A stretch of DNA of 64,000 bases from an uncultured Alphaproteobacteria bacterium. Its GTDB lineage: Bacteria > Pseudomonadota > Alphaproteobacteria > RF32 > CAG-239. Shown in pieces: positions 1,760-18,170 of this stretch (its first letter is position 1; each line of letters opens with the position of its first letter). The stretch lies in contig CALXWA010000001.1 of the NCBI GenBank assembly GCA_944392275.1, positions 4,737 through 68,736 on the forward strand, read 5' to 3'. The translations under genes were made by a program, and so were the position numbers. Below the pieces are notes generated by a model. That model made no database searches, had not been told where the DNA came from, and saw nothing but the letters and a program-made list of their open reading frames with translations.

Positions 1760-3507
1760 TGTCTTTTAAAAAGACAATGGCGGCACTATTGAGCTTTTTT
1801 TCCTTGTCTTTGCAAACGGCAGGTGCTGCCGAATGTAATATTGATATTATCAATCCGGTAACGTATAATAAAATTTTAGATTATTTACTGATTGATAAGT
1901 CAGATGTCCGAAACTATAAATATGCCTTTTCGGCTTTGGAACAAAATGACTTTGAAGAAGCAGACAACTACCTGCAAAAAATTGACAGTAATATTATCAT
2001 GGGCCATGCCTTGGCACAAAAATATTTATCCCCGAAATACAAAACAAAATATGCAGAATTGAAAGAATGGCTTGAAGAGTATAATGATTTGCCAATGGCC
2101 GGAAAAATTTATAAATTGGCCGTAAAAAAAGGTGGAGCCAAAGGTTTGGTAAAACCCAAAAAACAAAGGGAAGCCTCGTATATCAGTGGTTGGAAAAATG
2201 AAGATATTGATCACTTAAACGCATCGGATAAAAAATATATCCGCCAACAAGTCGTAAAGTTTAGAAAAAATCTCAATAAAGGAAAAACCAAGATTGCCCG
2301 CCAAGTTTTAGAACAAAAACGATTTCGGATGAAGGCTCCCAACAAATATTGGGACGACATGGCCGCTACTTTATCAATGAAATACTTGGTTGATAATTAT
2401 TTACAACTTGCTTTCAAATGGTCAAGCAAAGCCGCCGCCCGAGGAACATCCGGTATGGGGGCTTGGGTCGCAGGTTTATCATCCTGGCAACAAAAAAAGT
2501 ACAAAACAGCTGCAAAATATTTTGATAAATTGGCTTCTTCATCAAATTCGGATGAATGGTTGGTTTCTGCCGGAGGCTATTGGGGCTATCGGGCTTATGA
2601 AAAGTTAAAAAACTCGGTTAAAGCCAAACAGATGTTACAAAAAGCCGCAAAATATAAACATACGTTTTATGGAATTTTGGCGGCCTATCAATTAGGCGAG
2701 CCAATGGATTATAATTGGGATGCGGTCACATATTTAAACAATTTTGATTCTTATGATTATGTTTATGAACTGTTAGCATCACCTTCCATACGTCGAGCCG
2801 CAATTCTGCTCCATGCAGAACAGGTGGATTTGGCGGAACAAGAATTGCGTTTTGGTTATAATGATATGACCGATAAACAAAAAGAAGCAACAATTTATAT
2901 TGCTAATCAGTTTGGAATGCATGCGTTAGCCATTTATGCCTGCAATCAAAGCAAAAATATTGAAGATAATATCAGTTACGATGGTGTAGCTTATCCTATC
3001 CCGGAATTTTTACCGATAAGTGGCTGGAAAGTGGATAAAGCTTTGGTCTTGGCTTTAGTTCGGCAAGAATCTTCGTTTCGTCCGGAGGCACAAAGTCCGG
3101 CAGGAGCCAGAGGGCTAATGCAATTGATGCCCAATACCGCTTACCACATTACCAAAGATGTTTCCGTCAAAAAAAATAAAAATGTTTTATTAGACGCCGA
3201 ATATAATTTGGAATTAGGGCAAAAATACGTCAACTATCTGATGGAAAAGTCGTTCATAGATGGGAACTTATTTTACATGATGACGGCATATAATGCCGGA
3301 CCGGGAAATTTGGTAAAATGGAAAAAACAAGCCCGTTATCAAGATGATCCTTTAACCTTTATAGAAGTTATTCCCTCTGCAGAAACCAGAATCTATATTG
3401 AAAGGGTAATGGCAAATTATTGGATCTACAATTTTCGGTTTGGACTTTCTAACCCGACCATCCGCCAGCTGGCAGAAGGCAAATGGCCAACTCTTGATAA
3501 AAATTAA
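1759..3507 (+). CDS. slt: Soluble lytic murein transglycosylase (Slt family)
   Basis: Signal peptide, then the classic SLT-domain motif LVRQESSFRPEAQSPAGARGLMQLMPNTA with the catalytic Glu, followed by AYNAGPGN. Confidence 0.75.
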   Translation: MSFKKTMAALLSFFSLSLQTAGAAECNIDIINPVTYNKILDYLLIDKSDVRNYKYAFSALEQNDFEEADNYLQKIDSNIIMGHALAQKYLSPKYKTKYAELKEWLEEYNDLPMAGKIYKLAVKKGGAKGLVKPKKQREASYISGWKNEDIDHLNASDKKYIRQQVVKFRKNLNKGKTKIARQVLEQKRFRMKAPNKYWDDMAATLSMKYLVDNYLQLAFKWSSKAAARGTSGMGAWVAGLSSWQQKKYKTAAKYFDKLASSSNSDEWLVSAGGYWGYRAYEKLKNSVKAKQMLQKAAKYKHTFYGILAAYQLGEPMDYNWDAVTYLNNFDSYDYVYELLASPSIRRAAILLHAEQVDLAEQELRFGYNDMTDKQKEATIYIANQFGMHALAIYACNQSKNIEDNISYDGVAYPIPEFLPISGWKVDKALVLALVRQESSFRPEAQSPAGARGLMQLMPNTAYHITKDVSVKKNKNVLLDAEYNLELGQKYVNYLMEKSFIDGNLFYMMTAYNAGPGNLVKWKKQARYQDDPLTFIEVIPSAETRIYIERVMANYWIYNFRFGLSNPTIRQLAEGKWPTLDKN

Positions 3508-7440: not shown

Positions 7441-8400
7441 TTAAAATTTCGCTTTATTTAACAAGAACTCAATTCGCTCTTCCGGAGAAAGATTTTTGGG
7501 AAACTTTTTATCAACCAACTTCAACCGATCAATCAGCCCAATTCCGTTTGCTATTTGGATAGCCAACCCCGGTCTTGCATTAAGCTCCAACATCATAGGA
7601 CCTCGGTTTGCATCAAGAACAATATCAGCTCCTAAATATCCCAAACCGGTCATCTCAAAAGCTTTTGCTCCGATGAGTAAATGTTCTTTCCACATTGGAA
7701 CTTCAATTTTACTTAAATCGGCCTGCGTATCCGGATGAAGCAAAATAGGTTTGTTGTACATCACCGCTTTTAGAGATTTTCCGGTTTGGATGTCCAAACC
7801 AACTCCGACAGCTCCTTGGTGCAGATTAGCTCTTCCTCCGGAAGCTTTGGTCGACAATCTTGTCATCGCCATTGCCGGATATCCCTTATAGACAATCAAT
7901 CGCACGTCCGGAACACCCTGATAGCTATAATCCTTAAAAATATTTGAGAAATGCACCATTTCTTCAATCAAGGCAACATCATACTTTCCGCCCAAGCTGT
8001 ACAGACCACTCAAAATATTAGAGATATGCTTATAAATATCTTTGTAACCCAAGACTTTTCCGGAAGGTTGAATAAATTTTTCGCCATCGTGTTGGGCAAT
8101 AACCAAGACCCCTTTGCCCCCACTACCATGGGCAGGCTTGATAACAAATTCCTTAACCTCCTGAACGAGATTGACAAAGTTTTTAACTTCGTGTTGAAAC
8201 TCAATTGTCCCAATCATCTTAGGGGTATTAATTCCGGCTTTTTGTGCCAATTGTTTGGTTTGGACTTTGTCATCAACCAAAGGGTACAACCGCCGCTCAT
8301 TATACTGAGAAATAACCTTAAAATTTCTTCGATTCATTCCCATAACCCCGCTTTCGCGAAGTCTTTTAGGGGAAACATAGTTTTTAAAAGGATTCCACAT
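7441..8400 (-). CDS. Alpha-L-glutamate ligase-like ATP-grasp protein (RimK-related)
   Basis: ATP-grasp layout: KPAHGSGGKGVLVI, ...DVRLIVYKG..., GADIVLDANRGPMMLELNARPG. It is the last gene of the three-gene minus-strand operon 10477->7441. Confidence 0.65.
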   Translation of the reverse strand: MWNPFKNYVSPKRLRESGVMGMNRRNFKVISQYNERRLYPLVDDKVQTKQLAQKAGINTPKMIGTIEFQHEVKNFVNLVQEVKEFVIKPAHGSGGKGVLVIAQHDGEKFIQPSGKVLGYKDIYKHISNILSGLYSLGGKYDVALIEEMVHFSNIFKDYSYQGVPDVRLIVYKGYPAMAMTRLSTKASGGRANLHQGAVGVGLDIQTGKSLKAVMYNKPILLHPDTQADLSKIEVPMWKEHLLIGAKAFEMTGLGYLGADIVLDANRGPMMLELNARPGLAIQIANGIGLIDRLKLVDKKFPKNLSPEERIEFLLNKAKF

Positions 8401-8401
8401 T

Positions 8402-9958
8402 TTATTTCTCTTTAACTAAAGGAGCAAAACGTTTTAATTCGGTCAGACGGTACCCGGTGTAGGTTCCAAGCAGCATAACAACACACAAAATAACCAAATT
8501 AAATTCGTTGAAAGCAAACATAATATGACGAATATATTCATCATTAATAATAAAGTAGGTAACAATCGCCGCAATCAAACTATAAAAGATTTCTCTTCCG
8601 GCGTTGGCAGCTCCGTCTTCTTCCCAAGTAATAGAGGCGCGTTCAATAATCCACGCCATAATAATGATAGGGAAGAACACGGCCGATTGGGCAATGGTAA
8701 AGTCAAACTGATATCCGGCCACCGTCAAAAATTGCATAATCAAAATCACAAAAATAACAACGGCCGAAATTCTCGGAACCAATAACAAGTTCAGCTTAGA
8801 AAGAATAAACCGAATGGTAAGTCCCACAGCAACAATTAATGTAAAACAGATTAATCCGGGCCAAAATCCGGTTTTGACCAATGCCAAAGAAATTAACATT
8901 GGAGTAAAGGTCCCCATTGTGTTCAAGCCGACAATATTACGAATTAAAACAATAACCAAAATTGCCAACGGGAAAATGGTCAGCCATTTCAAGGTGCTCT
9001 GTTCGGCAAGGGGCAAACTATAGATAGAATAATCAAACCATGACTTATGTCCGGTTAACTTTGCTCGTTTTTCAGCAAGGCTTAAAGAAGAGGTAATCGA
9101 TTTTAAAACCGTAAATTTGACACTGGAATTTTCGCCTCCCTCAATATCAAGCAAAGATTCTCCGCCTCTTTGGAACAAAATAAAATTATCGGGAAGCCCT
9201 TTTTCTGCCGTAACAATATTATAAATCATCCATTTGTTGTTCAAATAAGCTTCCAACATCAAATCCGGATTAAAAGATCTCCGATCTTCTTCCAGTTTAA
9301 AGCCACGGACAACCCGATTAGGAATACCGTTATAAGACAAAATAAGCCGCAAGTTTTCCATCAATTCTTTTTGTGTCTTTTTGACCGGCATTAAAGCTTT
9401 AACAGCCGGAGAGCCAGGAACTTGGTTGAGTTCTTTAATAATCTGCACAACCTTGTTTCCTTCTTGTTTTTTCGCCAAATCGGAGATTTGTTTAACCAGG
9501 GCTTCGGTTTGTTCTTCTAAAACAGGCTTTTCCGGAGCTTGAGGTTGTTTGGCATAGGTTTTTCCTTTTGCATCCACATTATCAAACAACATCACACGAT
9601 AATAAACGGTTTGCGGTCCTTCTTTAGCCGGAGAAGTAATTTGCATCCGTTCGGTATCTTTAACAATTTTTTTTGATTTATATCCTTCAGCCGTAACGTT
9701 TTCTTCCAAAACCTTAAACTGTTCGGAAGTTTTAGGGGTTGTCAACAAAATTTTGATAGGTTCTCCGGTCGGGTCAAAATTGATACTGGCCTCAATTGTC
9801 CAAATATCCGAATTTTGATTCGGAGCAAAATTAAACCCCCAATAGCGAATTTTGTAATAAGCACTAAAAGAGGCATAAATTAAGGATAAAAAGAGTAAAA
9901 CAGTTAAAAAGAAACGAGTTGTAAGATAATTTTTCAGCATGGATTCAAACTTTAACAA
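8402..9958 (-). CDS. Inactive-transglutaminase-like periplasmic domain fused to 7 transmembrane helices (UUP1-type membrane protein)
   Basis: One N-terminal transmembrane helix, a ~300-aa soluble domain, then seven C-terminal hydrophobic helices. Its start is 1 nt after the upstream gene and its stop 1 nt before the downstream gene. Confidence 0.5.
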   Translation of the reverse strand: MLKFESMLKNYLTTRFFLTVLLFLSLIYASFSAYYKIRYWGFNFAPNQNSDIWTIEASINFDPTGEPIKILLTTPKTSEQFKVLEENVTAEGYKSKKIVKDTERMQITSPAKEGPQTVYYRVMLFDNVDAKGKTYAKQPQAPEKPVLEEQTEALVKQISDLAKKQEGNKVVQIIKELNQVPGSPAVKALMPVKKTQKELMENLRLILSYNGIPNRVVRGFKLEEDRRSFNPDLMLEAYLNNKWMIYNIVTAEKGLPDNFILFQRGGESLLDIEGGENSSVKFTVLKSITSSLSLAEKRAKLTGHKSWFDYSIYSLPLAEQSTLKWLTIFPLAILVIVLIRNIVGLNTMGTFTPMLISLALVKTGFWPGLICFTLIVAVGLTIRFILSKLNLLLVPRISAVVIFVILIMQFLTVAGYQFDFTIAQSAVFFPIIIMAWIIERASITWEEDGAANAGREIFYSLIAAIVTYFIINDEYIRHIMFAFNEFNLVILCVVMLLGTYTGYRLTELKRFAPLVKEK

Positions 9959-9961
9959 AAA

Positions 9962-10477
9962 TTAGTGAAGGGTATTTTCAATAGACGGATCAACCATAAA
10001 ACGCCCGTTTAGAACATTTCGACCGATTAAAGCCTGATAGGTAAATTTTTCACGATTAGCGAGGGAAAACTCAGCATTTATAAGGTTGCTTCCGATTTTA
10101 ATGTCCATATTAACGACCAAGCGTTTTTCGTCTTTATTAATACGAGTAATATTAACTTTACGTGTTACTTTTTTTTCAAAATGGTGTTTTTCGCCATTTT
10201 CATCATGTTTTAGGTCAAAAGAAACCCACTTTTCGCCATCTCTTTCAAATTGGTGCAGATTCGCTACATCAATAGACGATGTTTCGGCTCCGGTATCAAT
10301 TCTGGCAGCAAAAGGCACCTGCATCGGTAAAAAATAAATCGGTTCCACACCTCCGATAACTTCCAACGGCGTGCTGGTCTTTTTTACCTCAACACCGGGA
10401 ACCAACTCGGGTTTAACGTTATTCTGACAAGAAGAAACCATAAAAATCAATCCTAGAAGCAATAAATATTTTTTCAT
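9962..10477 (-). CDS. Retropepsin-like 'ATP-dependent zinc protease' family (DUF785) lipoprotein
   Basis: Lipobox signal (LGLIFMVSSCQ). Aspartic-protease-like motif ARIDTGAETSSIDV. It is the first gene of the three-gene operon. Confidence 0.6.
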   Translation of the reverse strand: MKKYLLLLGLIFMVSSCQNNVKPELVPGVEVKKTSTPLEVIGGVEPIYFLPMQVPFAARIDTGAETSSIDVANLHQFERDGEKWVSFDLKHDENGEKHHFEKKVTRKVNITRINKDEKRLVVNMDIKIGSNLINAEFSLANREKFTYQALIGRNVLNGRFMVDPSIENTLH

Positions 10478-10629
10478 TTTCCTACGTCTGCAAAAATTTA
10501 AACCAAAACTATTAAGTCTCAAATTCCCAAAATTGTAAAGATAAAAAAAATTAAATGACAACATTTTTTTTAATGAAAAAACAATAATTTTATGTTAATC
10601 TAAAACAAAATAGACAAAAGGGGCAAAAA

Positions 10630-11688
10630 ATGTCAAGAAAAGCAAAATTGGCCGGAATTAAAACGAAAATAAAGTTACTAATGCATCGCTATGCCATGAA
10701 AGTAGCTTCTTTTTCGGAAAAACTGCCGCACACATCACAAAAAGTTTTGTTAAAATGTACGGTTCCGTTGGTAATGGGTTTTGCTCCGGCGGGTGTTTTT
10801 TCGGCCTATAGCCAAAGCATTAGAGAAGCTCCAAAAAAAGAATTAATTGCAAAATTTGCCTCAACGGCTCCGGCTCAGGCTCATGCCATAGCAGCTAAAT
10901 TTAATCATGAGCTAAACAGCCGCGTTGATGAAATGCAGGGAGAGCTTTTTTTAGCTTATGCAGCCGAAATGAGCCGGACCATTAAAGAAATAAAAGCCGC
11001 CGCTAAAAGAAAAAGAAAATCCGTTTATCTGAAAAAAAGAGGAGCCACGAGTAGTCGTTATTACTGTGGTTTGAGTTTTCGGATTTTAGGAGAAATTGCT
11101 CAAGAATGCGGCTTATCGGAAGAGTATCAGGCCGTCTTGTCCAGGGTTAAGAATCCCGATGCATGCTTGAGTATCATTGAAGGTCTGAAGGAAGAGGACC
11201 AAAAGATTAATGGAGATATTTTATCAACCCTTGAACAGGGACTGGATGAAGATTCTTCTCAATGTGCCGTTGTTGTTCACAAATCTAGGGGGAATACCTC
11301 CAGTGGCTACCATGTTGTTGTGGTGGTAAAAGACAAAGTTTATGCCTTTAATGGGGAAAAAGACGGCGTCAGTATATACGAATACTTCAAGGGAGAAAGA
11401 AATACCGGTTATTTTTTCAATATCGGAAAAAGAGCGGAAGAAAAATACCGAGAAAAAGAAATTGATCGCTTTTGGGAAAAATATTATCAGCAATATCCGC
11501 AACATGAAGAAATGTATAGAAGAGCAGTTATTTCCAGTAATAATATCAGGCAAGAAATTATGCAATCATCTCTTGAGTTAGACGCTTACCGCCAAGCCAT
11601 AGCTAAACATACAGGCCCGCTTGAGGTAACGGATAATCAAGGCAAAAAAACGTTGGTTAATGCTTTTCAGAATGCTCGTCTTTCTTAA
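10630..11688 (+). CDS. Hypothetical protein, possible Cys/His hydrolase fold
   Basis: No signal peptide. The spacing YYCGLSF ... SGYHVVVVV ... D resembles a papain-like nucleophile/His arrangement. Followed by an intrinsic terminator. Confidence 0.35.
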   Translation: MSRKAKLAGIKTKIKLLMHRYAMKVASFSEKLPHTSQKVLLKCTVPLVMGFAPAGVFSAYSQSIREAPKKELIAKFASTAPAQAHAIAAKFNHELNSRVDEMQGELFLAYAAEMSRTIKEIKAAAKRKRKSVYLKKRGATSSRYYCGLSFRILGEIAQECGLSEEYQAVLSRVKNPDACLSIIEGLKEEDQKINGDILSTLEQGLDEDSSQCAVVVHKSRGNTSSGYHVVVVVKDKVYAFNGEKDGVSIYEYFKGERNTGYFFNIGKRAEEKYREKEIDRFWEKYYQQYPQHEEMYRRAVISSNNIRQEIMQSSLELDAYRQAIAKHTGPLEVTDNQGKKTLVNAFQNARLS

Positions 11689-11721: not shown

Positions 11722-12972
11722 TTAAAAGAAGATGGTACTGCGAAGCGTAAAGACCGTTGCATAATCTGATTTAGGATTTTCAGCCGGATCAAAATAAAAC
11801 TGAATATCCGGTGTTATAATCATCCATTTAGATACCCCGAAAGACCAATAAGCTTCTAAAACTTTTTCGGCGCTGTTGGCAAGGTTTTCACCGACGGCAG
11901 TTTCATTAATTTTGTTATAAGCCCCCGCAAACCCAATTTGATCCAAAGGGTTTCGATCAAAAGGATTGTTTAAAACCATACCCAAAACATAAGATTGGTC
12001 AATATCAATCATATCACCGGAAACCCCGTTTGCACGAGCAAAAACGGATAACACATCGCCAAAATCTTGACTTAAGTTTAAAGACCATCCGTTTGTTGTT
12101 TGCGGTTGTTCTTCCACTCCGGGTTGGTTATAGAGCAAAATTGAATATTGTCCGTCCCCAAGTTTGCCGATTGTCGGTGTATAAGAAAGAGAGGCAAAAG
12201 TTGTATAGTGTTCCTCTCCCAAATGGGCTGTAGAAATACTGTACCCGTCAATATTGGTAGCATCTTGAGCCCCAAAGGCAAAGTTCCATTCCGGATTAGG
12301 CGAAATTTGCATATATCCGCCAAGGGATGCCGAAGGGTAAGACGAGGAGGCATTTTGCGATAAGGCATAGTTAATAAAGTTAACTTGTTGGTTGGCATCA
12401 TAAGTCGTTCCGTCAAAATTATATATTGGAAATTGCCCCAAGGCCACCGTCAACCAATTGGCTTTACCGGGGAGTTGATAGCTCAGATATAATTCATCAA
12501 AAGTATTTGAAGGCGAATCATAGTCATTAATATCGGTCGCAACTCCGATTCGGTTTTGGAGCGTTTGAGCTTGCGTTCCGCTATAGCGAACAATACTATA
12601 AGCCGCGTTAAAAGAGAGATTTCCGTTTTCATTATTAAAAGCCGTCCAGGTCACAGAAGGATATATTGCGGTCTGAATAGCGGCTTTTTTCCCGCTCGGG
12701 GCTCCATATTGGGGCATATAGGAGATATCGACCGAATAATCCAAGTTATATTTACGGCTTAACATATTTTTAAAGTCGGTATAGGTTTGACCAAGATGTG
12801 TAAACGGATTATTACGCCGTATTTTGTTACTTTCAATTCTTTGTTTACCGCTTTTTGCCCCGCTGGCTTGAATTTCATCAGCATTATTTTCTTGAGCCAT
12901 TACATCACAAAAGCCAGAAAATCCTCCCAAACACAGGGCAGAACTCAAAGCCAAAACCCGAAACCATTTCAT
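11722..12972 (-). CDS. Outer-membrane beta-barrel porin (OprB-like carbohydrate porin family, tentative)
   Basis: Signal peptide. Alternating amphipathic strands rich in Y/G/N/S. C-terminal ...TLRSTIFF with the terminal Phe typical of outer-membrane beta-barrels. Confidence 0.5.
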   Translation of the reverse strand: MKWFRVLALSSALCLGGFSGFCDVMAQENNADEIQASGAKSGKQRIESNKIRRNNPFTHLGQTYTDFKNMLSRKYNLDYSVDISYMPQYGAPSGKKAAIQTAIYPSVTWTAFNNENGNLSFNAAYSIVRYSGTQAQTLQNRIGVATDINDYDSPSNTFDELYLSYQLPGKANWLTVALGQFPIYNFDGTTYDANQQVNFINYALSQNASSSYPSASLGGYMQISPNPEWNFAFGAQDATNIDGYSISTAHLGEEHYTTFASLSYTPTIGKLGDGQYSILLYNQPGVEEQPQTTNGWSLNLSQDFGDVLSVFARANGVSGDMIDIDQSYVLGMVLNNPFDRNPLDQIGFAGAYNKINETAVGENLANSAEKVLEAYWSFGVSKWMIITPDIQFYFDPAENPKSDYATVFTLRSTIFF

Positions 12973-13155
12973 TTAATATCTCCTAAAAGTTGCTTGTTTA
13001 TGCCAAAGAAATAGATACGATTTCATAAAATTGAAGAGGAATATTAAAAATTTTTGATTAGACAAATGGTGTTTTTTTGTGTTGACTTTTGTCTATAATG
13101 CGAATATGATAAAGCCATAAAAAATATTTTTATTAACTTATTAATTTTTTTTCAT

Positions 13156-13539
13156 ATGAAATTGAAAATAAAAAACGAGGAACGCTCATGGACAGAGACA
13201 CCTCAGGAAATTAAAGAAAAGTTGGCCGGAATTTTTCCCAACATTGAAGATTTGTATGAAATCGGCGAAGGTGTAGTTGCGGTAATTGACAACGCTTTAC
13301 AGGAAAAACACAAGCAAGCGATGGTTTTTCCGTTACGGGATAAAGAAAGTGGCTGTATTGATTTTATAGCCTATTATCCAATTCGGGATAATTATATCTT
13401 GCATCCTAAGCTTCAGTACACTCCTATCACTACAGCCGGAGAAACCTTCAAGACCAAGCGTGGTCTTATGACCATTGTTGCAAACGGAACAAGCTTTGCT
13501 TATCAGTATAGTAAAGTTCTTTCCAAAGTTGGGATCTAA
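13156..13539 (+). CDS. Hypothetical protein
   Basis: 127-aa ORF with no recognisable motif. First of a pair of small ORFs. Confidence 0.35.
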   Translation: MKLKIKNEERSWTETPQEIKEKLAGIFPNIEDLYEIGEGVVAVIDNALQEKHKQAMVFPLRDKESGCIDFIAYYPIRDNYILHPKLQYTPITTAGETFKTKRGLMTIVANGTSFAYQYSKVLSKVGI

Positions 13540-13570
13540 ATTCGAAGTCAAATTTTTAAATTTTTTAATC

Positions 13571-13945
13571 ATGAGCACCGCAGAAAATAGAACTGTAGGA
13601 ACAGGTTCTTTCAAAAAAGAGATTAAACATACCCCGCAGATAATGAGTAGTATTTTTGATGCTATGTTGGGAAGAAGATTGATGTTATATGCCTCAGCTT
13701 CCAATCCATATTTAGGGGTAATAGATCATGTTGAAGGCCCGGTGTGGGTTATGGATTTGTGTGTAGGCAAATATGTGCACTATGCCATATTTGAAGAGTT
13801 TACCAACACCATCTACATCTACATGGGTCCCTTGCGAGCCAAACCGATAATTGACATTGGTCAGTTCTATGAAAATAAATACTTGTTTGCACAGGTATAT
13901 TCGGACAAACACGAAAATGTTTGCATCTCAATCGGCGTCAAATAA
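13571..13945 (+). CDS. Hypothetical protein
   Basis: ATG at 13571 (MSTAENRTVG...). Chosen because the longer upstream ORF start overlaps the preceding gene. Followed by a hairpin plus T-run near 13958-13992. Confidence 0.35.
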   Translation: MSTAENRTVGTGSFKKEIKHTPQIMSSIFDAMLGRRLMLYASASNPYLGVIDHVEGPVWVMDLCVGKYVHYAIFEEFTNTIYIYMGPLRAKPIIDIGQFYENKYLFAQVYSDKHENVCISIGVK

Positions 13946-14034
13946 GTTCCTCCAAACAAAGAAAAGGGTTACCATCAAGGTAATCCTTTTTTGTTATCTG
14001 ATAACAAATTTTGTCCTCATTTTGTTTTAATACA

Positions 14035-14063
14035 TTGACATGTAAGGGAAATCAGGGTAAAAT
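14035..14063 (+). promoter_or_regulatory. Sigma-70-like promoter (TTGACA-N17-TAAAAT), with an upstream 17-bp perfect palindrome TTGTTATC-t-GATAACAA at 13991-14007
   Basis: Hexamers read directly from the sequence, about 120 nt upstream of the start of the large LRR gene. GGAGGG ribosome-binding site 7 nt before the ATG at 14188. Confidence 0.45.
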
Positions 14064-14187
14064 AGATGTGTAATGTGCGGAAAGATAAAAGCTATCCATA
14101 TATCACACACATACATATTTCAACAGCTTTTATAAAAAATATCGCTTTCCGCCATTACGCCGGTTAAGGATTGTGGAGGGCGGTGTC

Positions 14188-16722
14188 ATGCAGAAGCGTA
14201 TCTTAGGATTGATAGGAATCATCGTATTATGGTCAAATTTAGCTGAAGCATCAATTGTATCTTTGCCTCGATATACGGGAGATATCAGTTCCCGATATAA
14301 TGAAGCCAATATTGGCAAGACGGAAAAATTGAGTTGTGCAGAGCGAGGCAAAGTTGATAAGCCAAGTGATAGCTGTCAAAAGTGTGTTAACGAATATGCG
14401 GGATGTTGTGATTATATTGAATGTAGCACCGCTTCCAATTGTTATAAATATACTTCGGCTGATGCAGAAAAATATACCTGTGCGTCCTCGTGTCAAGATC
14501 GGTCTGGAAAACATTACAAAGATTGTCGTTATCAGTTAACGTGTAAAGATGTCTTGGGGATGACCACGGAAGAAGCCAGTCCGTATATAGCGGCGGGATT
14601 TTATTGCTCTCAAGCAAAAACAACATGTAAGATTGTAAATGGAACGACCCTTGGATCCTGTAAGCAATCTTCAGTATCATTAGGTGGAGAGAGTAACAGT
14701 GGTTCTTTAGGAGGAATGACTTCCGGAGGCAGTACCTCAGAACAAAGTATTATTTGTTATACCTGTGCGTGTCCGGAAGGGACCTATAATACTGTTCAGG
14801 GAGGAAAAAGCTGTACGGTTAGCCACCAAGTTGGTAACAGTAAATGTTATACGTGTGGCTGTCCGGCCGGAACCTATGGAGAAGATTGTAAGGCTTGTCC
14901 GACGGGGAGTTACAGCAGTACGGCAGGAGCCTCTACGTGTAGAGGATGTCCGGCAGGATATGGGTCTAAGACAGGGGTAACGGGAGCCACCAGTCAGGAA
15001 GCAGCATGTTCAATTTGTCCGCAAGGAACGTATAAAGCCAATATTGGCCCGGGAAGTTGTACCCCTTGTCCGACCGGGTATGAAGCCATTGCCGGAGTAA
15101 CCGGAGCAACCAGTGTTACGCAGGCCTGTGCACGGTCTTGTGTCCAATGTAGTACGGCAATCTATCCATTATTAACTTGTCCAGATAATGCGGTGTGTGA
15201 AAGCTGCACCCCACAATATTGTAGCGATAACACCACACGTTATAAAATAACTTCTTGTGATGATGGATATACTCTATCTGGGAATGTTTGTGTTGAAAAT
15301 AAAATTGAATATACCGGAGCCATCAAATTTGTAATAGATACCAGTTTGAATAAGTCGTTATCGTTTAACGTGGGAAATGCAACAAATATTAATTTTAATA
15401 TTAACTGGGGAGATGAAACTCAGGAAAATATTTTTTCTTCTGGAACGGTTTCTCATACCTATGCAAGTAGTGGTAAATATACAATTACAATTGAAGGCAA
15501 TTTACCAGAAATGGGACAAATAACTACATACAATATTGTTGAATTAAAACAATTAAATCTTTCAACTGTAAAAGCTTTTAAGTCGACTTTTACTGGGCAA
15601 AGAAATCTGACGGGAACCATACCGGAATTACCGGATAGCTTGGAGAATGGAAGATCTATGTTCTCTGGTTGTAGCGGGTTGACGGGAACTATCCCAGCAT
15701 TACCGGATAGTTTGACCAATGGATCTAATATGTTCTATGATTGTCGTAGTTTGACGGGAATGACCTCTCATATTTCAACAAGCTTGACCAATGGATCTGA
15801 TATGTTCGCTCATTGTAAAGGCTTAACGGGGACCATCCCAGCATTACCGGATAGTTTGACGAATGGAAGTTATATGTTCTCTGGTTGTAGCAGCTTAACG
15901 GGAACTATCCCAGCATTACCGGATAGCTTAGAAGATGGAAGGTATATGTTCCGTGGTTGTAGCGGGTTGACGGGAATGACCTCCCATTTACCGGCTAGCT
16001 TGGAGGATGGAAGTTGGATGTTCGAAGGTTGTAGCGGATTGACGGGAACCATACCGGCCTTACCGGATAGCTTGACCAAAGCTGCTGGTATGTTCAATGG
16101 TTGTCGTAGTTTGACGGGAATGACCTCTCATATTTCAACAAGCTTGACCGATGGATATATTATGTTCGCTGATTGTAGTGGTTTGACGGGAACCATACCG
16201 GCCTTACCGGATAGCTTGACCAGAGTTACTGGTATGTTTTTTCGCTGTAGTAGTTTGACGGGAATGACATCCCATTTACCAACTAATTTGACCAATGGAT
16301 TTGAGATGTTCCGTGATTGTAGTAAATTAACAGGAAGCATTCCAACATTACCAACAAGCTTGGAGAGTGGAAGTTCTATGTTCCGTGGTTGTAGCAAGTT
16401 GACAGGAACTATCCCAGCATTACCGGATAGCTTGACCAGTGGAGATAATATGTTCTCTGGTTGTAGCGGATTAACCGGAACCATACCGGTATTACCAGAT
16501 AGTTTGACCCATGGATCTGATATGTTCAATGGTTGTCGTAGTTTGACGGGAAAAATACCATCCTTACCAAAACGCCTCGCTAGTGGAAGTTCTATGTTCA
16601 ATGGTTGTAGCGGGTTGACGGGAAAATCACCTAAAAAACCATCAGGTATAACTTTTTATACAGATATATTCCGAGGTACACAAGTGACCAATGATGGTTC
16701 TTGGCCGGAGGGTGCTTGGTAA
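14188..16722 (+). CDS. Large secreted surface protein: Cys-rich ephrin-receptor-like (GCC2/GCC3-type) repeats + PKD-like module + ~14 BspA-type leucine-rich repeats
   Basis: Signal peptide. Repeated CxxCxCP(E/A)GTY...C modules (CYTCACPEGTYNT, CYTCGCPAGTYGEDCKACPTGSYSS, CSICPQGTYKAN, CTPCPTGYEA). PKD-like INWGDETQE...VSHTYASSGKYTITIEG. Then ~40-aa units F.GCSGLTGTIPALPDSLTNGS.MF repeated about 14 times, also visible as repeats in the DNA. Confidence 0.7.
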   Translation: MQKRILGLIGIIVLWSNLAEASIVSLPRYTGDISSRYNEANIGKTEKLSCAERGKVDKPSDSCQKCVNEYAGCCDYIECSTASNCYKYTSADAEKYTCASSCQDRSGKHYKDCRYQLTCKDVLGMTTEEASPYIAAGFYCSQAKTTCKIVNGTTLGSCKQSSVSLGGESNSGSLGGMTSGGSTSEQSIICYTCACPEGTYNTVQGGKSCTVSHQVGNSKCYTCGCPAGTYGEDCKACPTGSYSSTAGASTCRGCPAGYGSKTGVTGATSQEAACSICPQGTYKANIGPGSCTPCPTGYEAIAGVTGATSVTQACARSCVQCSTAIYPLLTCPDNAVCESCTPQYCSDNTTRYKITSCDDGYTLSGNVCVENKIEYTGAIKFVIDTSLNKSLSFNVGNATNINFNINWGDETQENIFSSGTVSHTYASSGKYTITIEGNLPEMGQITTYNIVELKQLNLSTVKAFKSTFTGQRNLTGTIPELPDSLENGRSMFSGCSGLTGTIPALPDSLTNGSNMFYDCRSLTGMTSHISTSLTNGSDMFAHCKGLTGTIPALPDSLTNGSYMFSGCSSLTGTIPALPDSLEDGRYMFRGCSGLTGMTSHLPASLEDGSWMFEGCSGLTGTIPALPDSLTKAAGMFNGCRSLTGMTSHISTSLTDGYIMFADCSGLTGTIPALPDSLTRVTGMFFRCSSLTGMTSHLPTNLTNGFEMFRDCSKLTGSIPTLPTSLESGSSMFRGCSKLTGTIPALPDSLTSGDNMFSGCSGLTGTIPVLPDSLTHGSDMFNGCRSLTGKIPSLPKRLASGSSMFNGCSGLTGKSPKKPSGITFYTDIFRGTQVTNDGSWPEGAW

Positions 16723-16840
16723 TTTAGAAGAGTAGGGTGGTTGGTAAAATAAAATTTCCTTCAGAGTTTTTCTGAAGGAAATTTTTGTTGCAAAATTTTG
16801 CGTTTTGGCGTAATCATAAGCCAGATTGAAAGGCTGTATA

Positions 16841-17377
16841 ATGAATTCAAAATTTTTGCTTCTTTCTTGTTGTGCTCCGTGTTCCTGTGCTGTGATTGCC
16901 AAATTGGCGGAAGCTAAAAAAGATTTTTCCGTCCTCTTTTACAATCCCAATATTCGCCCCTATGCGGAATATGAAAAAAGAAAACAAGAAAATCAGCGTG
17001 TTTGTGAACAATATCACGTTCCCTTCATTAGTCTGGAATATGATAATGATCGCTGGTGCAAGTTAACAAACGGGATGGAAAATATGCCGGAACGCTCCAT
17101 TCGGTGCTCCGTTTGTTTTCACATGCGTTTGCAAAGGGCCATGGAATATGCCAAAGAAAATGGTTTTGCAGCGGTTGCTTCCGTTTTAGGCGTTTCTCGT
17201 TACAAAAACTTGGCTCAGGTCAACCAAGCCGCTGCCAAAGCATCGGCCGAAACAGGGGTCCCGTATTTGGAGATTGAAGGCCGCAAAGGCGGAATGCAAG
17301 AGCTACGGATGGCCTTGATTAAAGAGTTGAACCTTTATTCGCAAACCTATTGCGGATGCAAACCCAGACAGGAATAA
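16841..17377 (+). CDS. queH: Epoxyqueuosine reductase QueH (DUF208)
   Basis: LLLSCCAPCS motif and C-terminal YCGC. The ORF track gives a TTG start at 16826; the ATG at 16841 has a better ribosome-binding site. Confidence 0.7.
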   Translation: MNSKFLLLSCCAPCSCAVIAKLAEAKKDFSVLFYNPNIRPYAEYEKRKQENQRVCEQYHVPFISLEYDNDRWCKLTNGMENMPERSIRCSVCFHMRLQRAMEYAKENGFAAVASVLGVSRYKNLAQVNQAAAKASAETGVPYLEIEGRKGGMQELRMALIKELNLYSQTYCGCKPRQE

Positions 17378-17381
17378 ACCC

Positions 17382-18170
17382 ATGCGAAAATTCGGTATTA
17401 AAATCTGGTCAACAGATGTCTTAAAAAATCCGCATTTTGTAACGGAATGTGTTAAAGCCGTTAAAGATGGAAAATTTGGCTATGTGGAATTATTTGCTCT
17501 TCCGGAGACTTTTCAAGAAACGGCAGCAAAATTAAAAGCCGAGATTGGACAAGAAAAAGTGATTATCCACGCACCGCATTCAAAATTTGGGGTTGATACC
17601 GGTACGGCCGATGCCTATACGGATAATTGTAAAAAATTAACATCATCTTTTCAGTTTGCCGATTTATTGTCGGCAGAAATAATCATTCTCCATGCCGGCT
17701 GTGGGGAAGGGGACGCTTTTGTAGACGAAACCATTCGTCAGTTTAATTTGTTGCATGATTCGCGGTTGTGTGTTGAAAATTTGCCTTATTTTTGTACGGC
17801 AACCGGCAAAATTTTGCATGGCACCTCGCCGCAGCAAATTGCCCGTATTAAGGCAGAAACCGGATGCGGCTTTTGTTTTGATTTTTCGCACGCGGTCTGT
17901 GCGGCCAACCACTATCACCGAGATATTTGGAAGGATTTGCAACAATATGCGTCACTAAAACCATCAATGTATCATTTATGCGATGGTGATTTTGCCGAAA
18001 CCGCTGACAAACATCTGCACTTTGGGGAGGGAAATTATAATTTGCAACGCCTACTCCAAGATTATACCACGCAAGATGCCCTCATAACCATGGAAACCGG
18101 ATACGGAACCCCAAACGGCATAGAACCATGGTTAAAAGACATTGATTATATTCGGCTTTTAGAAAAATAA
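17382..18170 (+). CDS. Xylose-isomerase-like TIM-barrel protein (sugar phosphate isomerase/epimerase or AP endonuclease 2 family)
   Basis: YVELF, IIHAPH, VENLPY, MYHLCDGD metal-ligand spacing typical of this fold. Specific function unknown. Confidence 0.4.
   Translation: MRKFGIKIWSTDVLKNPHFVTECVKAVKDGKFGYVELFALPETFQETAAKLKAEIGQEKVIIHAPHSKFGVDTGTADAYTDNCKKLTSSFQFADLLSAEIIILHAGCGEGDAFVDETIRQFNLLHDSRLCVENLPYFCTATGKILHGTSPQQIARIKAETGCGFCFDFSHAVCAANHYHRDIWKDLQQYASLKPSMYHLCDGDFAETADKHLHFGEGNYNLQRLLQDYTTQDALITMETGYGTPNGIEPWLKDIDYIRLLEK

What the first reader, a model, noticed from the sequence alone, without database searches (positions are those of the whole stretch)
13958..16722. 849-aa secreted protein combining eukaryote-type cysteine-rich modules, a PKD-like domain and ~14 BspA-type leucine-rich repeats
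After the signal peptide the protein has at least five CxxC(x)CP(x)GTY...C modules. Their spacing recalls ephrin-receptor-like / GCC2-GCC3 repeats, which are common in eukaryotic surface proteins and rare in bacteria. Next comes a PKD-like stretch (INWGDETQE...VSHTYASSGKYTITIEG). The last ~450 aa are about 14 near-identical ~40-aa units (F.GCSGLTGTIPALPDSLTNGS.MF), also visible as repeats in the DNA. In a host-associated alphaproteobacterium this looks like an adhesin or host-interaction effector, and the perfect repeats make it a likely phase- or length-variable locus. It has its own promoter (TTGACA-N17-TAAAAT) and a perfect 17-bp palindrome (TTGTTATC-t-GATAACAA) about 180 nt upstream of the start, which could be an operator for specific regulation.
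Basis: partly seen in the sequence, partly recalled or inferred. Interest (0 to 1): 0.7.

Follow-up and report, generated by a model that had tools for sequence, protein, structure and literature searches.

The report
Hypervariable leucine-rich-repeat surface protein gene
This gene encodes an exported, cysteine-rich protein ending in a leucine-rich-repeat "head" whose repeat number and sequence differ between otherwise almost identical strains of an uncultured alphaproteobacterium; it is an unusual variant of the well-known BspA/DUF285 adhesin-like proteins, not a new kind of system.

Summary
The ORF is real. The likely start is ATG 14188, giving 844 aa with a canonical Sec signal peptide, and the gene has its own promoter and terminators on both sides. 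Pfam confirms Ephrin_rec_like modules, a marginal PKD domain and DUF285/PARCEL repeats. AlphaFold models a beta-sandwich followed by an LRR solenoid (pLDDT 95.6) that best matches BspA-type LRR structures.

There are 15 units of exactly 24 aa, not about 40 aa. They are only about 66% identical at the DNA level, not near-identical.

Same-species contigs with 99-100% identical flanks carry at least five different repeat arrays at this locus: 15 units, 8 units, at least 16 units, and others. So the locus is hypervariable through allelic replacement and gene conversion, not slippage or phase variation.

The promoter, 5'UTR and N-terminal 360 aa recur at other loci fused to unrelated C-terminal heads. 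This makes it a modular multigene family.

The 17-bp palindrome exists, but such palindromes are no more frequent than chance. It travels with some family genes but not all, and its operator role is untested.

Most likely function: a disulfide-rich surface binding protein (adhesin-like) under diversifying selection. Verdict: a new variant of a known kind, of moderate interest.

The parts
13962..13990 (+). Intrinsic terminator hairpin (12-bp stem, 5-nt loop, U-run) that ends the upstream pair of small ORFs. It insulates the gene from upstream transcription.
   Evidence: RNA fold: -18.4 kcal/mol, z -4.3. Conserved in L001 and L003.
13991..14007 (.). Perfect 8-1-8 palindrome TTGTTATC-T-GATAACAA, centred about 71 nt upstream of the inferred transcription start. 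Function unknown.
   Evidence: Present upstream of family genes in L001, L003, L084 and L085, absent in L002. Palindromes of this class are not more frequent than chance.
14035..14063 (+). Sigma-70-type promoter TTGACA-N17-TAAAAT.
   Evidence: 11 of 12 matches, the best in the 13000-17500 scan. The -35 hexamer is invariant in all four aligned loci; the spacer and -10 are identical in L002, masked by N in L003 and different in L001.
14070..14187 (+). 5'UTR of about 118 nt (start inferred) with Shine-Dalgarno GGAGG at 14175-14179. A predicted hairpin pairs 14139-14152 with the SD region.
   Evidence: The fold z-scores are only -1.9 to -2.4, so this is weak.
14188..16722 (+). Coding sequence: 844 aa plus the stop codon.
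   Evidence: An 844-aa gene is called at the syntenic locus in L084.
14188..14250 (+). Sec signal peptide, residues 1-21, with predicted cleavage AEA|S. There is no lipobox cysteine.
   Evidence: Sequence inspection. Conserved in homologs.
14251..14325 (+). Leader of the mature protein, residues 22-46, with the invariant motif L-P-R-Y ... R. Predicted disordered. Candidate sorting or anchoring peptide (inferred).
   Evidence: L26, P27, R28, Y29 and R36 are invariant in alignment A2. An LP[RD][YWFA] motif is present in 28 of the 46 best hits. pLDDT is below 50.
14326..14676 (+). Cysteine-rich domain A, residues 47-163. Mixed alpha/beta, no known family, very narrow distribution.
   Evidence: AF2 pLDDT about 80-89. 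Only about 8 clusters among 1.84 billion representative proteins cover it. No Pfam hit.
14677..14733 (+). Gly/Ser-rich flexible linker, residues 164-182.
   Evidence: pLDDT is below 50 for model residues 143-161. Its length varies among homologs.
14734..15312 (+). Cysteine-rich stalk, residues 183-375, with six CxxCPxG(T/S)Y modules of the Ephrin_rec_like / TNFR-like type. Residues 22-375 contain 38 Cys in total, enough for 19 disulfides.
   Evidence: PF07699 E 9.7e-9. pLDDT 85-96. Weak fold matches to TNFR, Eph cysteine-rich domain, ELAPOR1 and mastigoneme. Cys counts. A recombination junction with paralog P0004 lies near 15269.
15319..15555 (+). PKD-like beta-sandwich, residues 378-456, containing WGDETQE ... 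SHTYASSGKYTITIEG.
   Evidence: PF00801 24.2 bits against cutoff 23.5. Eight strands modelled with pLDDT above 90.
15583..16662 (+). Array of 15 tandem 24-aa (72-nt) leucine-rich repeats, consensus xMFxGCSGLTGTIPALPDSLTNGx. This is the hypervariable head.
   Evidence: DUF285 and TIGR02167 hits. Solenoid modelled with pLDDT 95.6. Matches to LRR_5 and TpLRR structures. Different alleles in same-species contigs.
16663..16719 (+). C-terminal cap DIFRGTQVTNDGSWPEGAW, residues 826-844. Homology between divergent alleles resumes here.
   Evidence: Conserved across alleles and paralogs. L088 homology to the window resumes at 16639.
16751..16785 (+). Terminator hairpin with perfect 15-bp arms and a 5-nt loop, followed by TTTTT. 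It ends the monocistronic unit.
   Evidence: RNA fold: -20.2 kcal/mol, z -3.4.

Best explanation
The gene is a self-contained unit with its own promoter and a terminator on each side. It encodes a Sec-exported, disulfide-rich, modular extracytoplasmic protein.

The conserved N-terminal part has four pieces: an LPRY leader, cysteine-rich domain A, a Gly/Ser linker, and a stalk of six Ephrin-receptor/TNFR-like modules. I read this part as a rigid stalk or attachment module. It carries a PKD-like beta-sandwich and a solenoid of 15 leucine-rich repeats of 24 aa each. The solenoid is the ligand-binding head, as in BspA/TpLRR-type bacterial adhesins.

The gene belongs to a multigene family. In this family the same promoter, 5'UTR and stalk are fused to interchangeable heads. 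The head at this locus is diversified between strains by homologous recombination, meaning whole-array allelic replacement and short-tract gene conversion. It is not diversified by replication slippage or on/off phase switching.

Shown: the architecture, the fold class, the family modularity and the strain-level allelic diversity.

Inferred: surface location, binding or adhesin function, diversifying selection as the cause, and recombination as the process.
For: - **Domains:** Pfam DUF285, Ephrin_rec_like and PKD all score above their cutoffs. TIGR02167 also scores above its cutoff.
- **Fold of the C-terminal part:** The AF2 model of residues 370-844 has pLDDT 95.6 and pTM 0.90, and shows a beta-sandwich followed by a solenoid. 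The best Foldseek hits are BspA-type LRR proteins of gut bacteria: 4fs7 (E 1.2e-8), 4gt6 and 4h09. TpLRR 6mlx also matches, at 25% identity.
- **Repeat register:** PDB sequence search aligns the repeats in 24-aa register with plant LRR ectodomains such as FLS2 (E 3.9e-14). The repeat Cys falls on the Asn-ladder position.
- **Repeat variability:** Positions 1, 4, 15, 22 and 24 of the repeat are hypervariable. M2, F3, C6, L9, T10, G11 and L20 are fixed. This is the pattern expected of an LRR scaffold with a variable surface.
- **Export:** The signal peptide and 38 Cys in the N-terminal part fit an extracytoplasmic, disulfide-bonded protein.
- **Modularity:** L002/P0004 shares 96.4% nt identity over 14003-15269 (promoter, UTR and 360 aa), then has an unrelated C-terminus in a different genomic context. 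P0007, P0010, P0011 and P0028 share only the N-terminal 43-70% of the query (P0028 covers the most) and show no DUF285 hit. Conversely, P0009, P0012 and P0015 carry the PKD plus LRR module behind different Cys-rich N-termini.
- **Paralogy:** P0002 lies about 2.8 kb beyond the left end of the window, in a strain 98.1% identical over window 1-3160.
- **Allelic diversity at this locus:** Contigs that carry the identical 262-aa downstream protein hold different heads. The 15-unit allele is in the window, L084 and L086. An 8-unit allele of different sequence is in four independent assemblies (L085, L087, L089, L092). L088 has at least 16 units of an 'IPELP' type. L090, L091 and L093 differ again.
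- **Flank identity:** Against L085 the flanks are 99.2-99.3% identical, while the repeats are 85% identical over the alignable part. Against L084 the flanks are 100% identical.
- **Conversion footprint:** The window and L084 are identical over 3 kb on each side and across the whole repeat array. They differ at 16 sites in the N-terminal module, 12 of them within 14373-14505, and several are shared with L085.
Against: - I found no outer-membrane anchor, autotransporter barrel, lipobox or known secretion-system signal, and no secretion genes nearby. In a diderm the protein could stay periplasmic or be released.
- There is no experimental evidence of expression, location or binding.
- Pfam LRR_5 itself does not hit this protein.
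- Foldseek TM-scores to the LRR_5 structures are modest, 0.36-0.46.
- All comparison contigs are short-read metagenome assemblies. Many break inside the repeat array, so individual allele structures could be mis-assembled. The 8-unit and 15-unit alleles are each reproduced in several independent assemblies.
Confidence: 0.6

Rival explanations
1. The locus is a contingency locus. Near-perfect tandem repeats undergo replication slippage and change repeat number in frame, or switch the gene on and off. A dedicated regulator binding the 17-bp palindrome controls the gene.
For: - Repeat number does differ between strains: 15, 8 and at least 16 units.
- The period is exactly 72 nt, so any change in unit number stays in frame.
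- A 49-nt exact repeat lies five units apart.
- The palindrome is conserved upstream of family genes in four other loci.
Against: - The units are only 46-92% identical at the DNA level, mean 66%.
- The alleles differ in the sequence of every unit, not only in count. Alleles of the L088, L093 and L091 types share no exact match of 25 nt or more with the window array.
- There are no homopolymer or short-unit tracts in the promoter or the 5' coding region, and no inverted repeats flank the promoter.
- The palindrome is absent from L002, which keeps the identical promoter.
- The palindrome is not statistically unusual. It also sits at about -71, not over the promoter hexamers.
Confidence: 0.1
2. 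The protein is a released host mimic or decoy. Its TNFR/Ephrin-receptor-like cysteine-rich modules, possibly acquired from a eukaryote, bind host TNF-family or ephrin-type ligands. The LRR part is secondary.
For: - Ephrin_rec_like hit.
- The nearest named sequence relatives outside the family are eukaryotic: oyster, Triparma, Ostreococcus, MMETSP protists and Anaeramoeba.
- Papers in the searchable library that mention this Pfam family concern eukaryotes (titles and abstracts listed).
Against: - The stalk is the conserved part and the head is the variable part, which suggests the head is the interaction surface.
- The same stalk carries unrelated heads, which fits a scaffold role.
- No ligand-binding residues could be tested.
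Confidence: 0.1
3. The variable head is driven by phage or by bacterial competition rather than by the host. The protein would be a surface receptor or decoy targeted by phages, or a cell-cell recognition molecule. Allelic replacement would then reflect an arms race with phages or kin discrimination.
For: Deeply diverged alleles sit in a 99-100% identical background. That pattern is typical of loci under negative frequency-dependent selection, which phage receptors also show. This point rests on general knowledge.
Against: There are no phage genes, defence genes or immunity-like genes next to the locus. Nothing here distinguishes this pressure from host immunity.
Confidence: 0.12
4. The gene is a polymorphic toxin or contact-dependent inhibition-like system. 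A conserved N-terminal delivery module carries a variable C-terminal effector, and the small neighbouring ORFs act as immunity proteins.
For: The organisation is a conserved N-terminus with swapped C-termini. Two small conserved ORFs with no known family lie nearby (13156-13539 and 13571-13945). They are conserved with the gene in L003.
Against: - The variable C-terminus here is a repeat scaffold with a high-confidence LRR fold, not a toxin domain.
- The small ORFs lie upstream, are separated from the gene by a terminator, and are absent next to the paralogs in L001 and L002.
- The downstream genes are housekeeping: QueH and an AP_endonuc_2 family TIM-barrel protein.
- There are no toxin, Rhs, TPS or T6SS marker hits.
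Confidence: 0.03

Closest known systems
BspA / TpLRR-type (Pfam LRR_5) bacterial surface proteins, such as Tannerella forsythia BspA, Treponema pallidum TpLRR (PDB 6mlx), and the gut-bacterial structures 4fs7, 4gt6 and 4h09
   Same: - LRR solenoid with a conserved Cys at the Asn-ladder position and an 'aFxxCxxL' core.
- These are the best structural matches.
- NCBI names a relative (P0015) 'BspA family leucine-rich repeat surface protein'.
- A relative with the same head module (P0009) hits both LRR_5 (6.3e-17) and DUF285 (6.7e-18).
- Exported via a signal peptide.
   Different: - The window protein gives no LRR_5 hit.
- The unit is 24 aa and ends in a plant-like LTGxIPxLP segment, unlike the roughly 23-aa TpLRR consensus (consensus recalled from memory).
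- The N-terminal Ephrin-like cysteine stalk and the PKD-like domain are extra.
- The adhesin function of BspA comes from my own knowledge of the literature and was not tested here.
PARCEL / DUF285 repeat proteins (Roske et al. 2010, PMC2996958), such as Mycoplasma mycoides LppQ
   Same: - Hits DUF285 and TIGR02167 above their cutoffs.
- Tandem array with conserved hydrophobic positions and hypervariable hydrophilic positions; almost every unit is unique.
- Embedded behind ORF-specific N-terminal sequence, with a membrane-targeting signal.
- Multigene distribution with signs of intragenomic shuffling.
   Different: - The canonical PARCEL unit is 25 residues with W..S.V..M..MF..A..FNQDIS.W. Here the unit is 24 residues, with no Trp, and with LTGxIPxLPDSL in the second half.
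- I found no dyad symmetry in the DNA.
- The host is a diderm alphaproteobacterium and the protein is not a lipoprotein.
Plant-specific LRR receptor ectodomains (FLS2, ERL1/2, GSO1, TDR, PEPR1)
   Same: - 24-residue period and an L(S/T)GxIP motif.
- These are the best sequence matches in the PDB, in register across 13 or more repeats (E 3.9e-14).
   Different: - Cys replaces the ladder Asn, and MF replaces LxL.
- There is no kinase, transmembrane segment or plant-type cap.
- By fold the protein is closer to the LRR_5 proteins.
- The resemblance is probably convergence or shared LRR ancestry, not membership.
Eukaryotic Ephrin_rec_like / TNFR-like cysteine-rich repeats (Eph receptor CRD, ELAPOR1, Chlamydomonas mastigoneme Mst1, giant protist surface proteins)
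   Same: - CxxCPxGxY module spacing.
- PF07699 hit above its cutoff.
- Weak but consistent structural neighbours.
- The closest named sequence relatives are eukaryotic.
   Different: - Only about six modules, in a bacterial exported protein.
- Preceded by a family-specific cysteine domain A found in only about 8 clusters of 1.84 billion representatives.
- Fused to a bacterial LRR head.
Large variant BspA-like families of mucosal protists (Trichomonas vaginalis TvBspA, PMC2843621; Entamoeba BspA-like)
   Same: Multigene family of LRR surface proteins with variable repeat numbers and diverse flanking regions (abstract listed).
   Different: - The organism here is bacterial.
- The variation is shown here as allelic replacement at one syntenic locus.
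- I did not read these papers beyond their abstracts.

Membership tests
DUF285 / PARCEL repeat proteins | Score above the curated cutoff for Pfam PF03382 and NCBIfam TIGR02167 | tested here: met
   PF03382 scores 45.3 bits against a cutoff of 25. TIGR02167 scores 34.6 bits against a cutoff of 30, though no single stretch passes on its own.
DUF285 / PARCEL repeat proteins | Canonical 25-residue unit with periodic W/V/M/F/F/I hydrophobic positions (W..S.V..M..MF..A..FNQDIS) | tested here: not met
   The unit is exactly 24 aa, xMFxGCSGLTGTIPALPDSLTNGx. Only the MFxG..(L/F) core is shared, and there is no Trp.
DUF285 / PARCEL repeat proteins | Dyad symmetry (palindromic character) of the repeat-coding DNA | tested here: not met
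   The array has no minus-strand self-hits by blastn. The consensus unit matches its own reverse complement at 28 of 72 positions, against 31.0 +/- 2.3 for shuffles. The only signal is a weak reverse-frame protein similarity by tblastn, E 2.3e-9.
DUF285 / PARCEL repeat proteins | Hypervariable hydrophilic positions between conserved hydrophobic ones, with mostly unique units | tested here: met
   Per-position entropy: positions 1, 4, 15, 22 and 24 exceed 2.3 bits, while positions 3, 9, 10 and 11 are invariant. All 15 units are unique.
BspA / TpLRR (Pfam LRR_5) surface proteins | Significant match to PF13306 (LRR_5) | tested here: not met
   No LRR_5 hit at E<=1 for the window protein. The relative P0009, which has the same head module, hits LRR_5 at 6.3e-17.
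BspA / TpLRR (Pfam LRR_5) surface proteins | LRR solenoid fold closest to solved LRR_5 / TpLRR structures | tested here: met
   The model has pLDDT 95.6. The top Foldseek hits are 4fs7 (E 1.2e-8), 4gt6 and 4h09. 6mlx matches with TMt 0.56 and 25% identity. TM-scores for the full-length model are modest, 0.36-0.46.
BspA / TpLRR (Pfam LRR_5) surface proteins | Conserved Cys in place of the Asn of the LRR ladder (aFxxCxxL) | tested here: met
   C6 is present in 14 of 15 units, within MFxGCxxL. It aligns to the ladder Asn of FLS2.
BspA / TpLRR (Pfam LRR_5) surface proteins | Cell-surface location and adhesion to host matrix or cells | not testable with these tools
   Only a signal peptide can be inferred, and no anchor was recognised.
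Plant-specific (PS) LRR class | 24-residue unit LxxLxLxxNxL(S/T)GxIPxxLGxLxx | tested here: inconclusive
   The period of 24 and the LTGxIP motif are present; 10 of the 15 units have I-P after LTGx. The alignment to FLS2 is in register, E 3.9e-14. However, N is replaced by C, LxL by MF, and four units read LTGMTSH.
Ephrin_rec_like (PF07699, formerly GCC2_GCC3) cysteine-rich repeats | Score above the Pfam gathering cutoff | tested here: met
   35.3 bits against a cutoff of 23.1, E 9.7e-9, in 2 stretches. The same hit is seen in paralogs.
Ephrin_rec_like (PF07699, formerly GCC2_GCC3) cysteine-rich repeats | TNFR-like disulfide-ladder fold | tested here: inconclusive
PKD domain | Pfam PF00801 above its cutoff, WxxGDG and HxY motifs, and a beta-sandwich fold | tested here: met
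   24.2 bits against a cutoff of 23.5, which is marginal. The NWGDETQE and SHTYASSGKYTITIEG motifs are present. Eight strands are modelled at pLDDT above 90.
Phase-variable contingency locus | Simple-sequence tract in the promoter or 5' coding region, or an invertible promoter flanked by inverted repeats with a nearby recombinase | tested here: not met
   TRF finds only the 72-nt array and two trivial in-frame micro-repeats. No inverted repeats flank the promoter. No recombinase lies in the neighbourhood.
Polymorphic toxin / CDI-type systems | C-terminal toxin domain followed by a cognate immunity gene | tested here: not met
   The C-terminus is an LRR solenoid. The downstream gene is QueH.

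The most novel reading that the evidence does not exclude
The family could be an undescribed surface-display and variation system of uncultured gut-type Alphaproteobacteria. Its features would be:
- A conserved post-signal-peptide leader, (hydrophobic)2-L-P-[R/D]-[Y/W/F]...R...C..YG, acting as a new sorting or anchoring signal.
- A eukaryote-derived, disulfide-rich TNFR/Ephrin-receptor-like stalk.
- Interchangeable heads (LRR arrays or unrelated domains) that are swapped between paralogous loci and alleles by recombination under a shared promoter cassette.

This would be a bacterial analogue of the variant surface protein families of protists. The stalk might be acquired horizontally from a eukaryote and might engage host ligands.
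Probability: 0.12. Interest if true: 0.75.

Novelty: new variant of a known kind. Interest (0 to 1): 0.42.

Why it matters
Uncultured low-GC Alphaproteobacteria known only from metagenome assemblies are essentially unstudied. This locus gives a concrete candidate for how they interact with their surroundings.

The protein combines three things rarely seen together in bacteria. The first is a eukaryote-type, disulfide-rich cysteine stalk. The second is a PKD-like domain. The third is a BspA/DUF285-class LRR head with a plant-like LTGxIP signature.

The strain comparison shows that the head is one of the most variable points in an otherwise 99-100% identical genomic neighbourhood. That marks it as a likely target of diversifying selection from host immunity, ligands or phages. 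It could also serve as a strain-typing marker.

The shared cassette of promoter, UTR and stalk with exchangeable heads is a tidy natural example of modular surface-protein evolution.

None of this overturns current understanding. BspA-like and DUF285 repeat proteins, and their variability, are already well known.

Tried and rejected
- **Paralogs inside the window:** none found by tblastn with the N- and C-terminal halves.
- **GTDB species representatives:** a scan with conserved N-terminal peptide patterns gave 97 pattern matches, none confirmed. I used the second scan on MutS to identify the organism.
- **Exact-product look-up:** the window protein is not on record.
- **Rfam scan of 12900-17000:** only sub-threshold chance hits.
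- **Riboswitch or SD-sequestering 5'UTR:** the window hairpin has z -1.9 to -2.4. The divergent 5'UTR of L001 folds differently (z -1.5 to -1.7). There is not enough variation to test covariation.
- **PARCEL-type DNA dyad symmetry:** not found.
- **Palindrome as a regulon motif:** there is only one perfect copy in the window. The 2-3 mismatch copies fall in unrelated places. Among the fetched loci it occurs only upstream of family genes.
- **Fur-box resemblance:** I considered a resemblance of the GTTATC-N-GATAAC half-sites to Fur-box hexamers. This comes from memory only and the orientation differs, so I did not pursue it.
- **afdb50 fold search:** unavailable.
- **Alternative heads:** the head of P0004 has no PDB sequence relative, no Pfam hit, and no similarity to the head of P0007 beyond 40 aa.
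- **Sample provenance:** a literature search for the sample and assembly identifiers found nothing relevant.
- **LPRY leader as a general secretome signal:** in about 267 kb of window plus related loci, only family genes carry it.
- **Mobile-element origin:** no integrase or recombinase family among the neighbouring genes annotated, and no tRNA within about 6 kb of the gene.
- **Minus-strand ORFs in the repeat array:** 16128-16601, 15870-16097 and 15459-15719 are periodic shadows of the array, not genes.

Full report
**1. What is in the sequence**

An uninterrupted ORF runs 14173..16722 on the + strand, 849 aa from GTG. The real start is almost certainly ATG 14188. It lies 8 nt after GGAGG (14175-14179). 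The close full-length relatives also begin MQKR. The syntenic gene in a same-species contig is called at 844 aa. I use 844-aa numbering below; the Pfam coordinates are +5.

Residues 1-21 (MQKRILGLIGIIVLWSNLAEA|S) have the classic n-, h- and c-regions and an A-x-A cleavage site. There is no lipobox Cys. I judged this by inspection, as no predictor was available.

The gene is transcriptionally self-contained:
- A strong terminator hairpin closes the upstream genes at 13962-13990 (z -4.3).
- The best sigma-70-like promoter in the region is TTGACA-N17-TAAAAT at 14035-14063, 11 of 12 matches.
- A perfect 15-bp-arm hairpin followed by a T-run lies 29 nt after the stop, at 16751-16785 (z -3.4).

**2. 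Domain anatomy**

Pfam gives three hits above cutoff:
- DUF285: E 8.8e-12, 45.3 bits, cutoff 25.
- Ephrin_rec_like: E 9.7e-9, 35.3 bits, cutoff 23.1.
- PKD: E 3.4e-5, 24.2 bits, cutoff 23.5.

NCBIfam gives the PARCEL repeat model TIGR02167 at 34.6 bits against a cutoff of 30. LRR_5 does not hit.

The AF2 model of residues 22-375 has pLDDT 80.8. With it, the N-terminal half resolves into four parts:
- A disordered leader, residues 22-46, with an invariant LPRY motif.
- Cysteine-rich domain A, residues 47-163, with no known family.
- A disordered Gly/Ser linker, residues 164-182.
- A stalk, residues 183-375, containing six CxxCPxG(T/S)Y modules.

Residues 22-375 hold 38 cysteines, all invariant in the family alignment. 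That is enough for 19 disulfides.

The AF2 model of residues 370-844 is excellent, with pLDDT 95.6 and pTM 0.90. It shows an eight-stranded beta-sandwich (the PKD-like domain, residues about 378-456) followed by a continuous solenoid.

Foldseek ranks BspA-type LRR proteins of gut bacteria first: 4fs7 (E 1.2e-8), 4gt6 and 4h09. It also finds TpLRR (6mlx) at 25% identity.

By sequence, the best PDB matches are plant 24-residue LRR ectodomains such as FLS2 (E 3.9e-14). They align in register, with the repeat Cys on the Asn-ladder position and LTGxIP on the plant LSGxIP motif.

**3.

The array is 15 units of exactly 24 aa (72 nt), at 15583-16662, followed by a 19-aa cap. It is not about 14 units of about 40 aa.

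The units are diverged:
- DNA identity averages 0.66, range 0.46-0.92.
- Protein identity averages 0.56.
- TRF reports 68% matches.
- The longest exact DNA repeat is 49 nt.

Positions M2, F3, C6, L9, T10, G11 and L20 are essentially fixed. Positions 1, 4, 15, 22 and 24 are hypervariable. That is the signature of an LRR scaffold with a variable exposed surface.

Two unit subtypes are interspersed, LTGTIPALPDSL and LTGMTSH(I/L)..(S/N)L.

The canonical PARCEL unit is 25 aa with a different second half. I found no DNA dyad symmetry. The array is therefore a DUF285/BspA-class LRR variant rather than a textbook PARCEL.

**4. Organism and neighbourhood**

MutS from the window is 75% identical at best to an Alphaproteobacteria MAG (SIG57). 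It is 61-70% identical to other uncultured (alpha)proteobacterial MAGs, one from roe-deer reticulum. The organism is an uncultured, low-GC alphaproteobacterium (about 39% GC). Host association is plausible but rests only on those MAG names.

The neighbours are housekeeping genes. An OprB-family porin and two small ORFs with no family hit lie upstream. QueH, an AP_endonuc_2-type TIM barrel protein, a radical-SAM protein and MnmA lie downstream. There is no secretion system, recombinase or phage gene nearby, and no tRNA within about 6 kb (tRNA scan).

**5. A modular multigene family**

The homolog search found full-length relatives: P0001 (68% identity, 782 aa) and P0002 (74%, 738 aa). It also found proteins that share only the N-terminal 43-70% of the query: P0004, P0007, P0010, P0011 and P0028.

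- **L002 (P0004):** The DNA is 96.4% identical to the window from 14003 to 15269, covering promoter, 5'UTR and the first 360 codons. It then becomes unrelated and sits in a different context, CTP synthase / PagP. That head has no Pfam or PDB relative and also differs from the head of P0007.
- **L001 (P0002):** This contig is 98.1% identical to window 1-3160, so it is the same species. P0002 lies about 2.8 kb beyond the left end of the window, so the species has at least two or three family loci.
- **Different N-termini:** The PKD plus LRR module also occurs behind different cysteine-rich N-termini in P0009, P0012 and P0015. P0015 is named 'BspA family leucine-rich repeat surface protein [Alphaproteobacteria bacterium]' by NCBI. 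P0009 hits both DUF285 and LRR_5.
- **Distribution:** Among 1.84 billion representative proteins, only about 8 clusters cover domain A. The 943 weaker hits match the Ephrin-like part only. Those I could name are eukaryotic: oyster, Triparma, Ostreococcus and MMETSP protists.

**6. Strain-level variation, the key new result**

The downstream 262-aa protein has exact copies on 22 contigs. Ten syntenic places were retrieved. At the same position upstream of QueH they carry different alleles:
- The 15-unit allele: window, L084 and L086.
- An 8-unit allele, 676 aa, in which every unit differs in sequence: four independent assemblies, L085, L087, L089 and L092.
- An allele with at least 16 units of an 'IPELP' type: L088, with a related one in L093.
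- Two further types: L090 and L091.

The identity figures show the contrast between flanks and array:

| Comparison | Upstream 3 kb | Downstream 3 kb | N-terminal module | Repeat array |
|---|---|---|---|---|
| Window vs L085 | 99.3% | 99.2% | 97.8% | 85% over the alignable 636 nt |
| Window vs L084 | 100% | 100% | 98.85% | 100% |

In L088, homology to the window resumes only at 16639, which is at the C-cap. Alleles of the L088, L093 and L091 types share no exact match of 25 nt or more with the window array. These are old or imported allelic lineages, not recent slippage products.

The window and L084 differ at 16 sites in the N-terminal module. Twelve of those lie within 14373-14505, and several are shared with L085. 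This is a short-tract conversion footprint.

Many contigs break inside the array. That fits within-sample heterogeneity or assembly difficulty. It is also the main caveat, because all comparisons are short-read assemblies.

**7. The palindrome and regulation**

TTGTTATC-T-GATAACAA (13991-14007) is real and perfect. It starts immediately after the terminator hairpin and is centred about 71 nt upstream of the inferred transcription start.

- Perfect 8-1-8 palindromes occur 4 times in the window, against 2.2 +/- 1.4 in simulations. The palindrome is not significant by itself.
- It is retained upstream of family genes in L001 (a paralog with a different upstream gene), L003, L084 and L085. It occurs nowhere else in the 93 fetched loci.
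- L002 lacks it while keeping the identical promoter.

Its role as an operator, an activator site or mere hitch-hiker is open. I found no phase-variation device such as a simple-sequence tract or an invertible promoter.

**8. Most likely mechanism**

The protein is exported by Sec and oxidatively folded. I expect it to be displayed on or released from the cell. A rigid cysteine-rich stalk would present a PKD plus LRR head that binds an external ligand. This follows BspA/TpLRR-type adhesins and is an inference from fold class.

Between strains, the head is replaced by recombination with other alleles or paralogs, and the stalk exchanges short tracts. The allele pattern is shown; the process is inferred. 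The selective agent is unknown and could be host immunity, ligand diversity or phage.

The weak points are the lack of any recognisable outer-membrane anchor or secretion signal and the lack of any experimental data. My confidence in this overall picture is about 0.6.

**9. Novelty and score**

BspA-like and DUF285 LRR surface proteins, and their variability, are well known. Four things are new here:
- The architecture: LPRY leader, a private cysteine domain, an Ephrin/TNFR-like stalk, a PKD-like domain and a 24-aa hybrid LRR.
- The shared cassette of promoter and stalk with exchangeable heads.
- The documented allelic replacement at a fixed locus.
- The setting in an unstudied bacterial lineage.

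That makes it a new variant of a known kind. Interest is about 0.42.

Noticed in passing
window 14251-14325 (residues 22-46); also P0008, P0009, P0012, P0015, P0017, P0018, P0025, P0026, P0031, P0033, P0046: A conserved leader follows the signal peptide: (hydrophobic)2-L-P-[R/D]-[Y/W/F] ... R ... C..YG. It is present in 28 of the 46 best hits, even where the following cysteine-rich domains differ. AF2 predicts it to be disordered. In about 267 kb of window plus related loci, only family genes carry it. It could be a sorting, anchoring or partner-docking peptide.
   Followed up: partly
window 14139-14186: The 5'UTR segment 14139-14152 is predicted to pair with the Shine-Dalgarno region 14173-14186 (-20 to -32 kcal/mol, z -1.9 to -2.4). 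This might mean translational control. The paralog in L001 has a different 5'UTR with only partial equivalent pairing, so the idea is unsupported by covariation.
   Followed up: partly
window 13156-13539 and 13571-13945 (+): Two small ORFs (127 aa and 124 aa) have no Pfam or NCBIfam hit. They lie upstream of the gene at the syntenic locus in same-species contigs. They also lie upstream of P0001 in L003, which is 85% identical at the nt level and has different downstream genes. They are not next to the paralogs in L001 or L002. A terminator separates them from the gene.
   Followed up: partly
window 14373-14505: A cluster of 12 nucleotide differences separates the window from contig L084, which is otherwise identical over at least 3 kb on each side and across the whole repeat array. 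Several of the variants are shared with L085. This looks like a short gene-conversion tract within the conserved N-terminal module.
   Followed up: yes
L001 6001-8217 (about 2.8 kb beyond window position 1 in a strain 98% identical over window 1-3160): A paralog (P0002, 738 aa, 10 repeat units) sits next to a TPR protein and a uracil-DNA glycosylase, just outside the left edge of the window. The window's own genome probably has a family member there too.
   Followed up: partly
window 15459-15719, 15870-16097, 16128-16601 (- strand): Long minus-strand ORFs inside the repeat array encode their own periodic repeat (..LSGNAGIVPVNPLQPxNI..). tblastn shows a weak reverse-frame similarity to the forward repeat (E 2.3e-9), but there is no DNA dyad symmetry. 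They are shadows of the array, not genes.
   Followed up: yes
window 15583-16662 vs PDB 4mn8 (FLS2): By sequence, the closest solved structures are plant LRR receptor kinases, with the same 24-aa register and LTGxIP matching LSGxIP. By fold, the closest are bacterial LRR_5 proteins. The repeat looks like a hybrid of the TpLRR-type core (MFxGCxxL) and the plant-type second half.
   Followed up: partly
window 7441-10564 (- strand): This is a three-gene cluster: an ATP-grasp (ATPgrasp_ST) protein, a 7TM-transglutaminase-like membrane protein and a RimB-like protein. The Pfam labels are those on the syntenic genes of L084.
   Followed up: no
window 48854-51718 (- strand) and 10630-11688 (+): A 954-aa ORF and a 352-aa ORF have no significant Pfam or NCBIfam match. 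The only hits are sub-threshold: a ribosomal protein L13 model (PRK06394) for the 954-aa ORF and SLATT_3 for the 352-aa ORF.
   Followed up: no
L002 7141-8451; P0007 residues about 400-930: The alternative heads carried by the same promoter and stalk cassette have no Pfam or PDB sequence relatives. They differ from each other beyond a shared 40-aa junction segment (SIPSGQNCTPI.TTAG.CYTNCS).
   Followed up: partly
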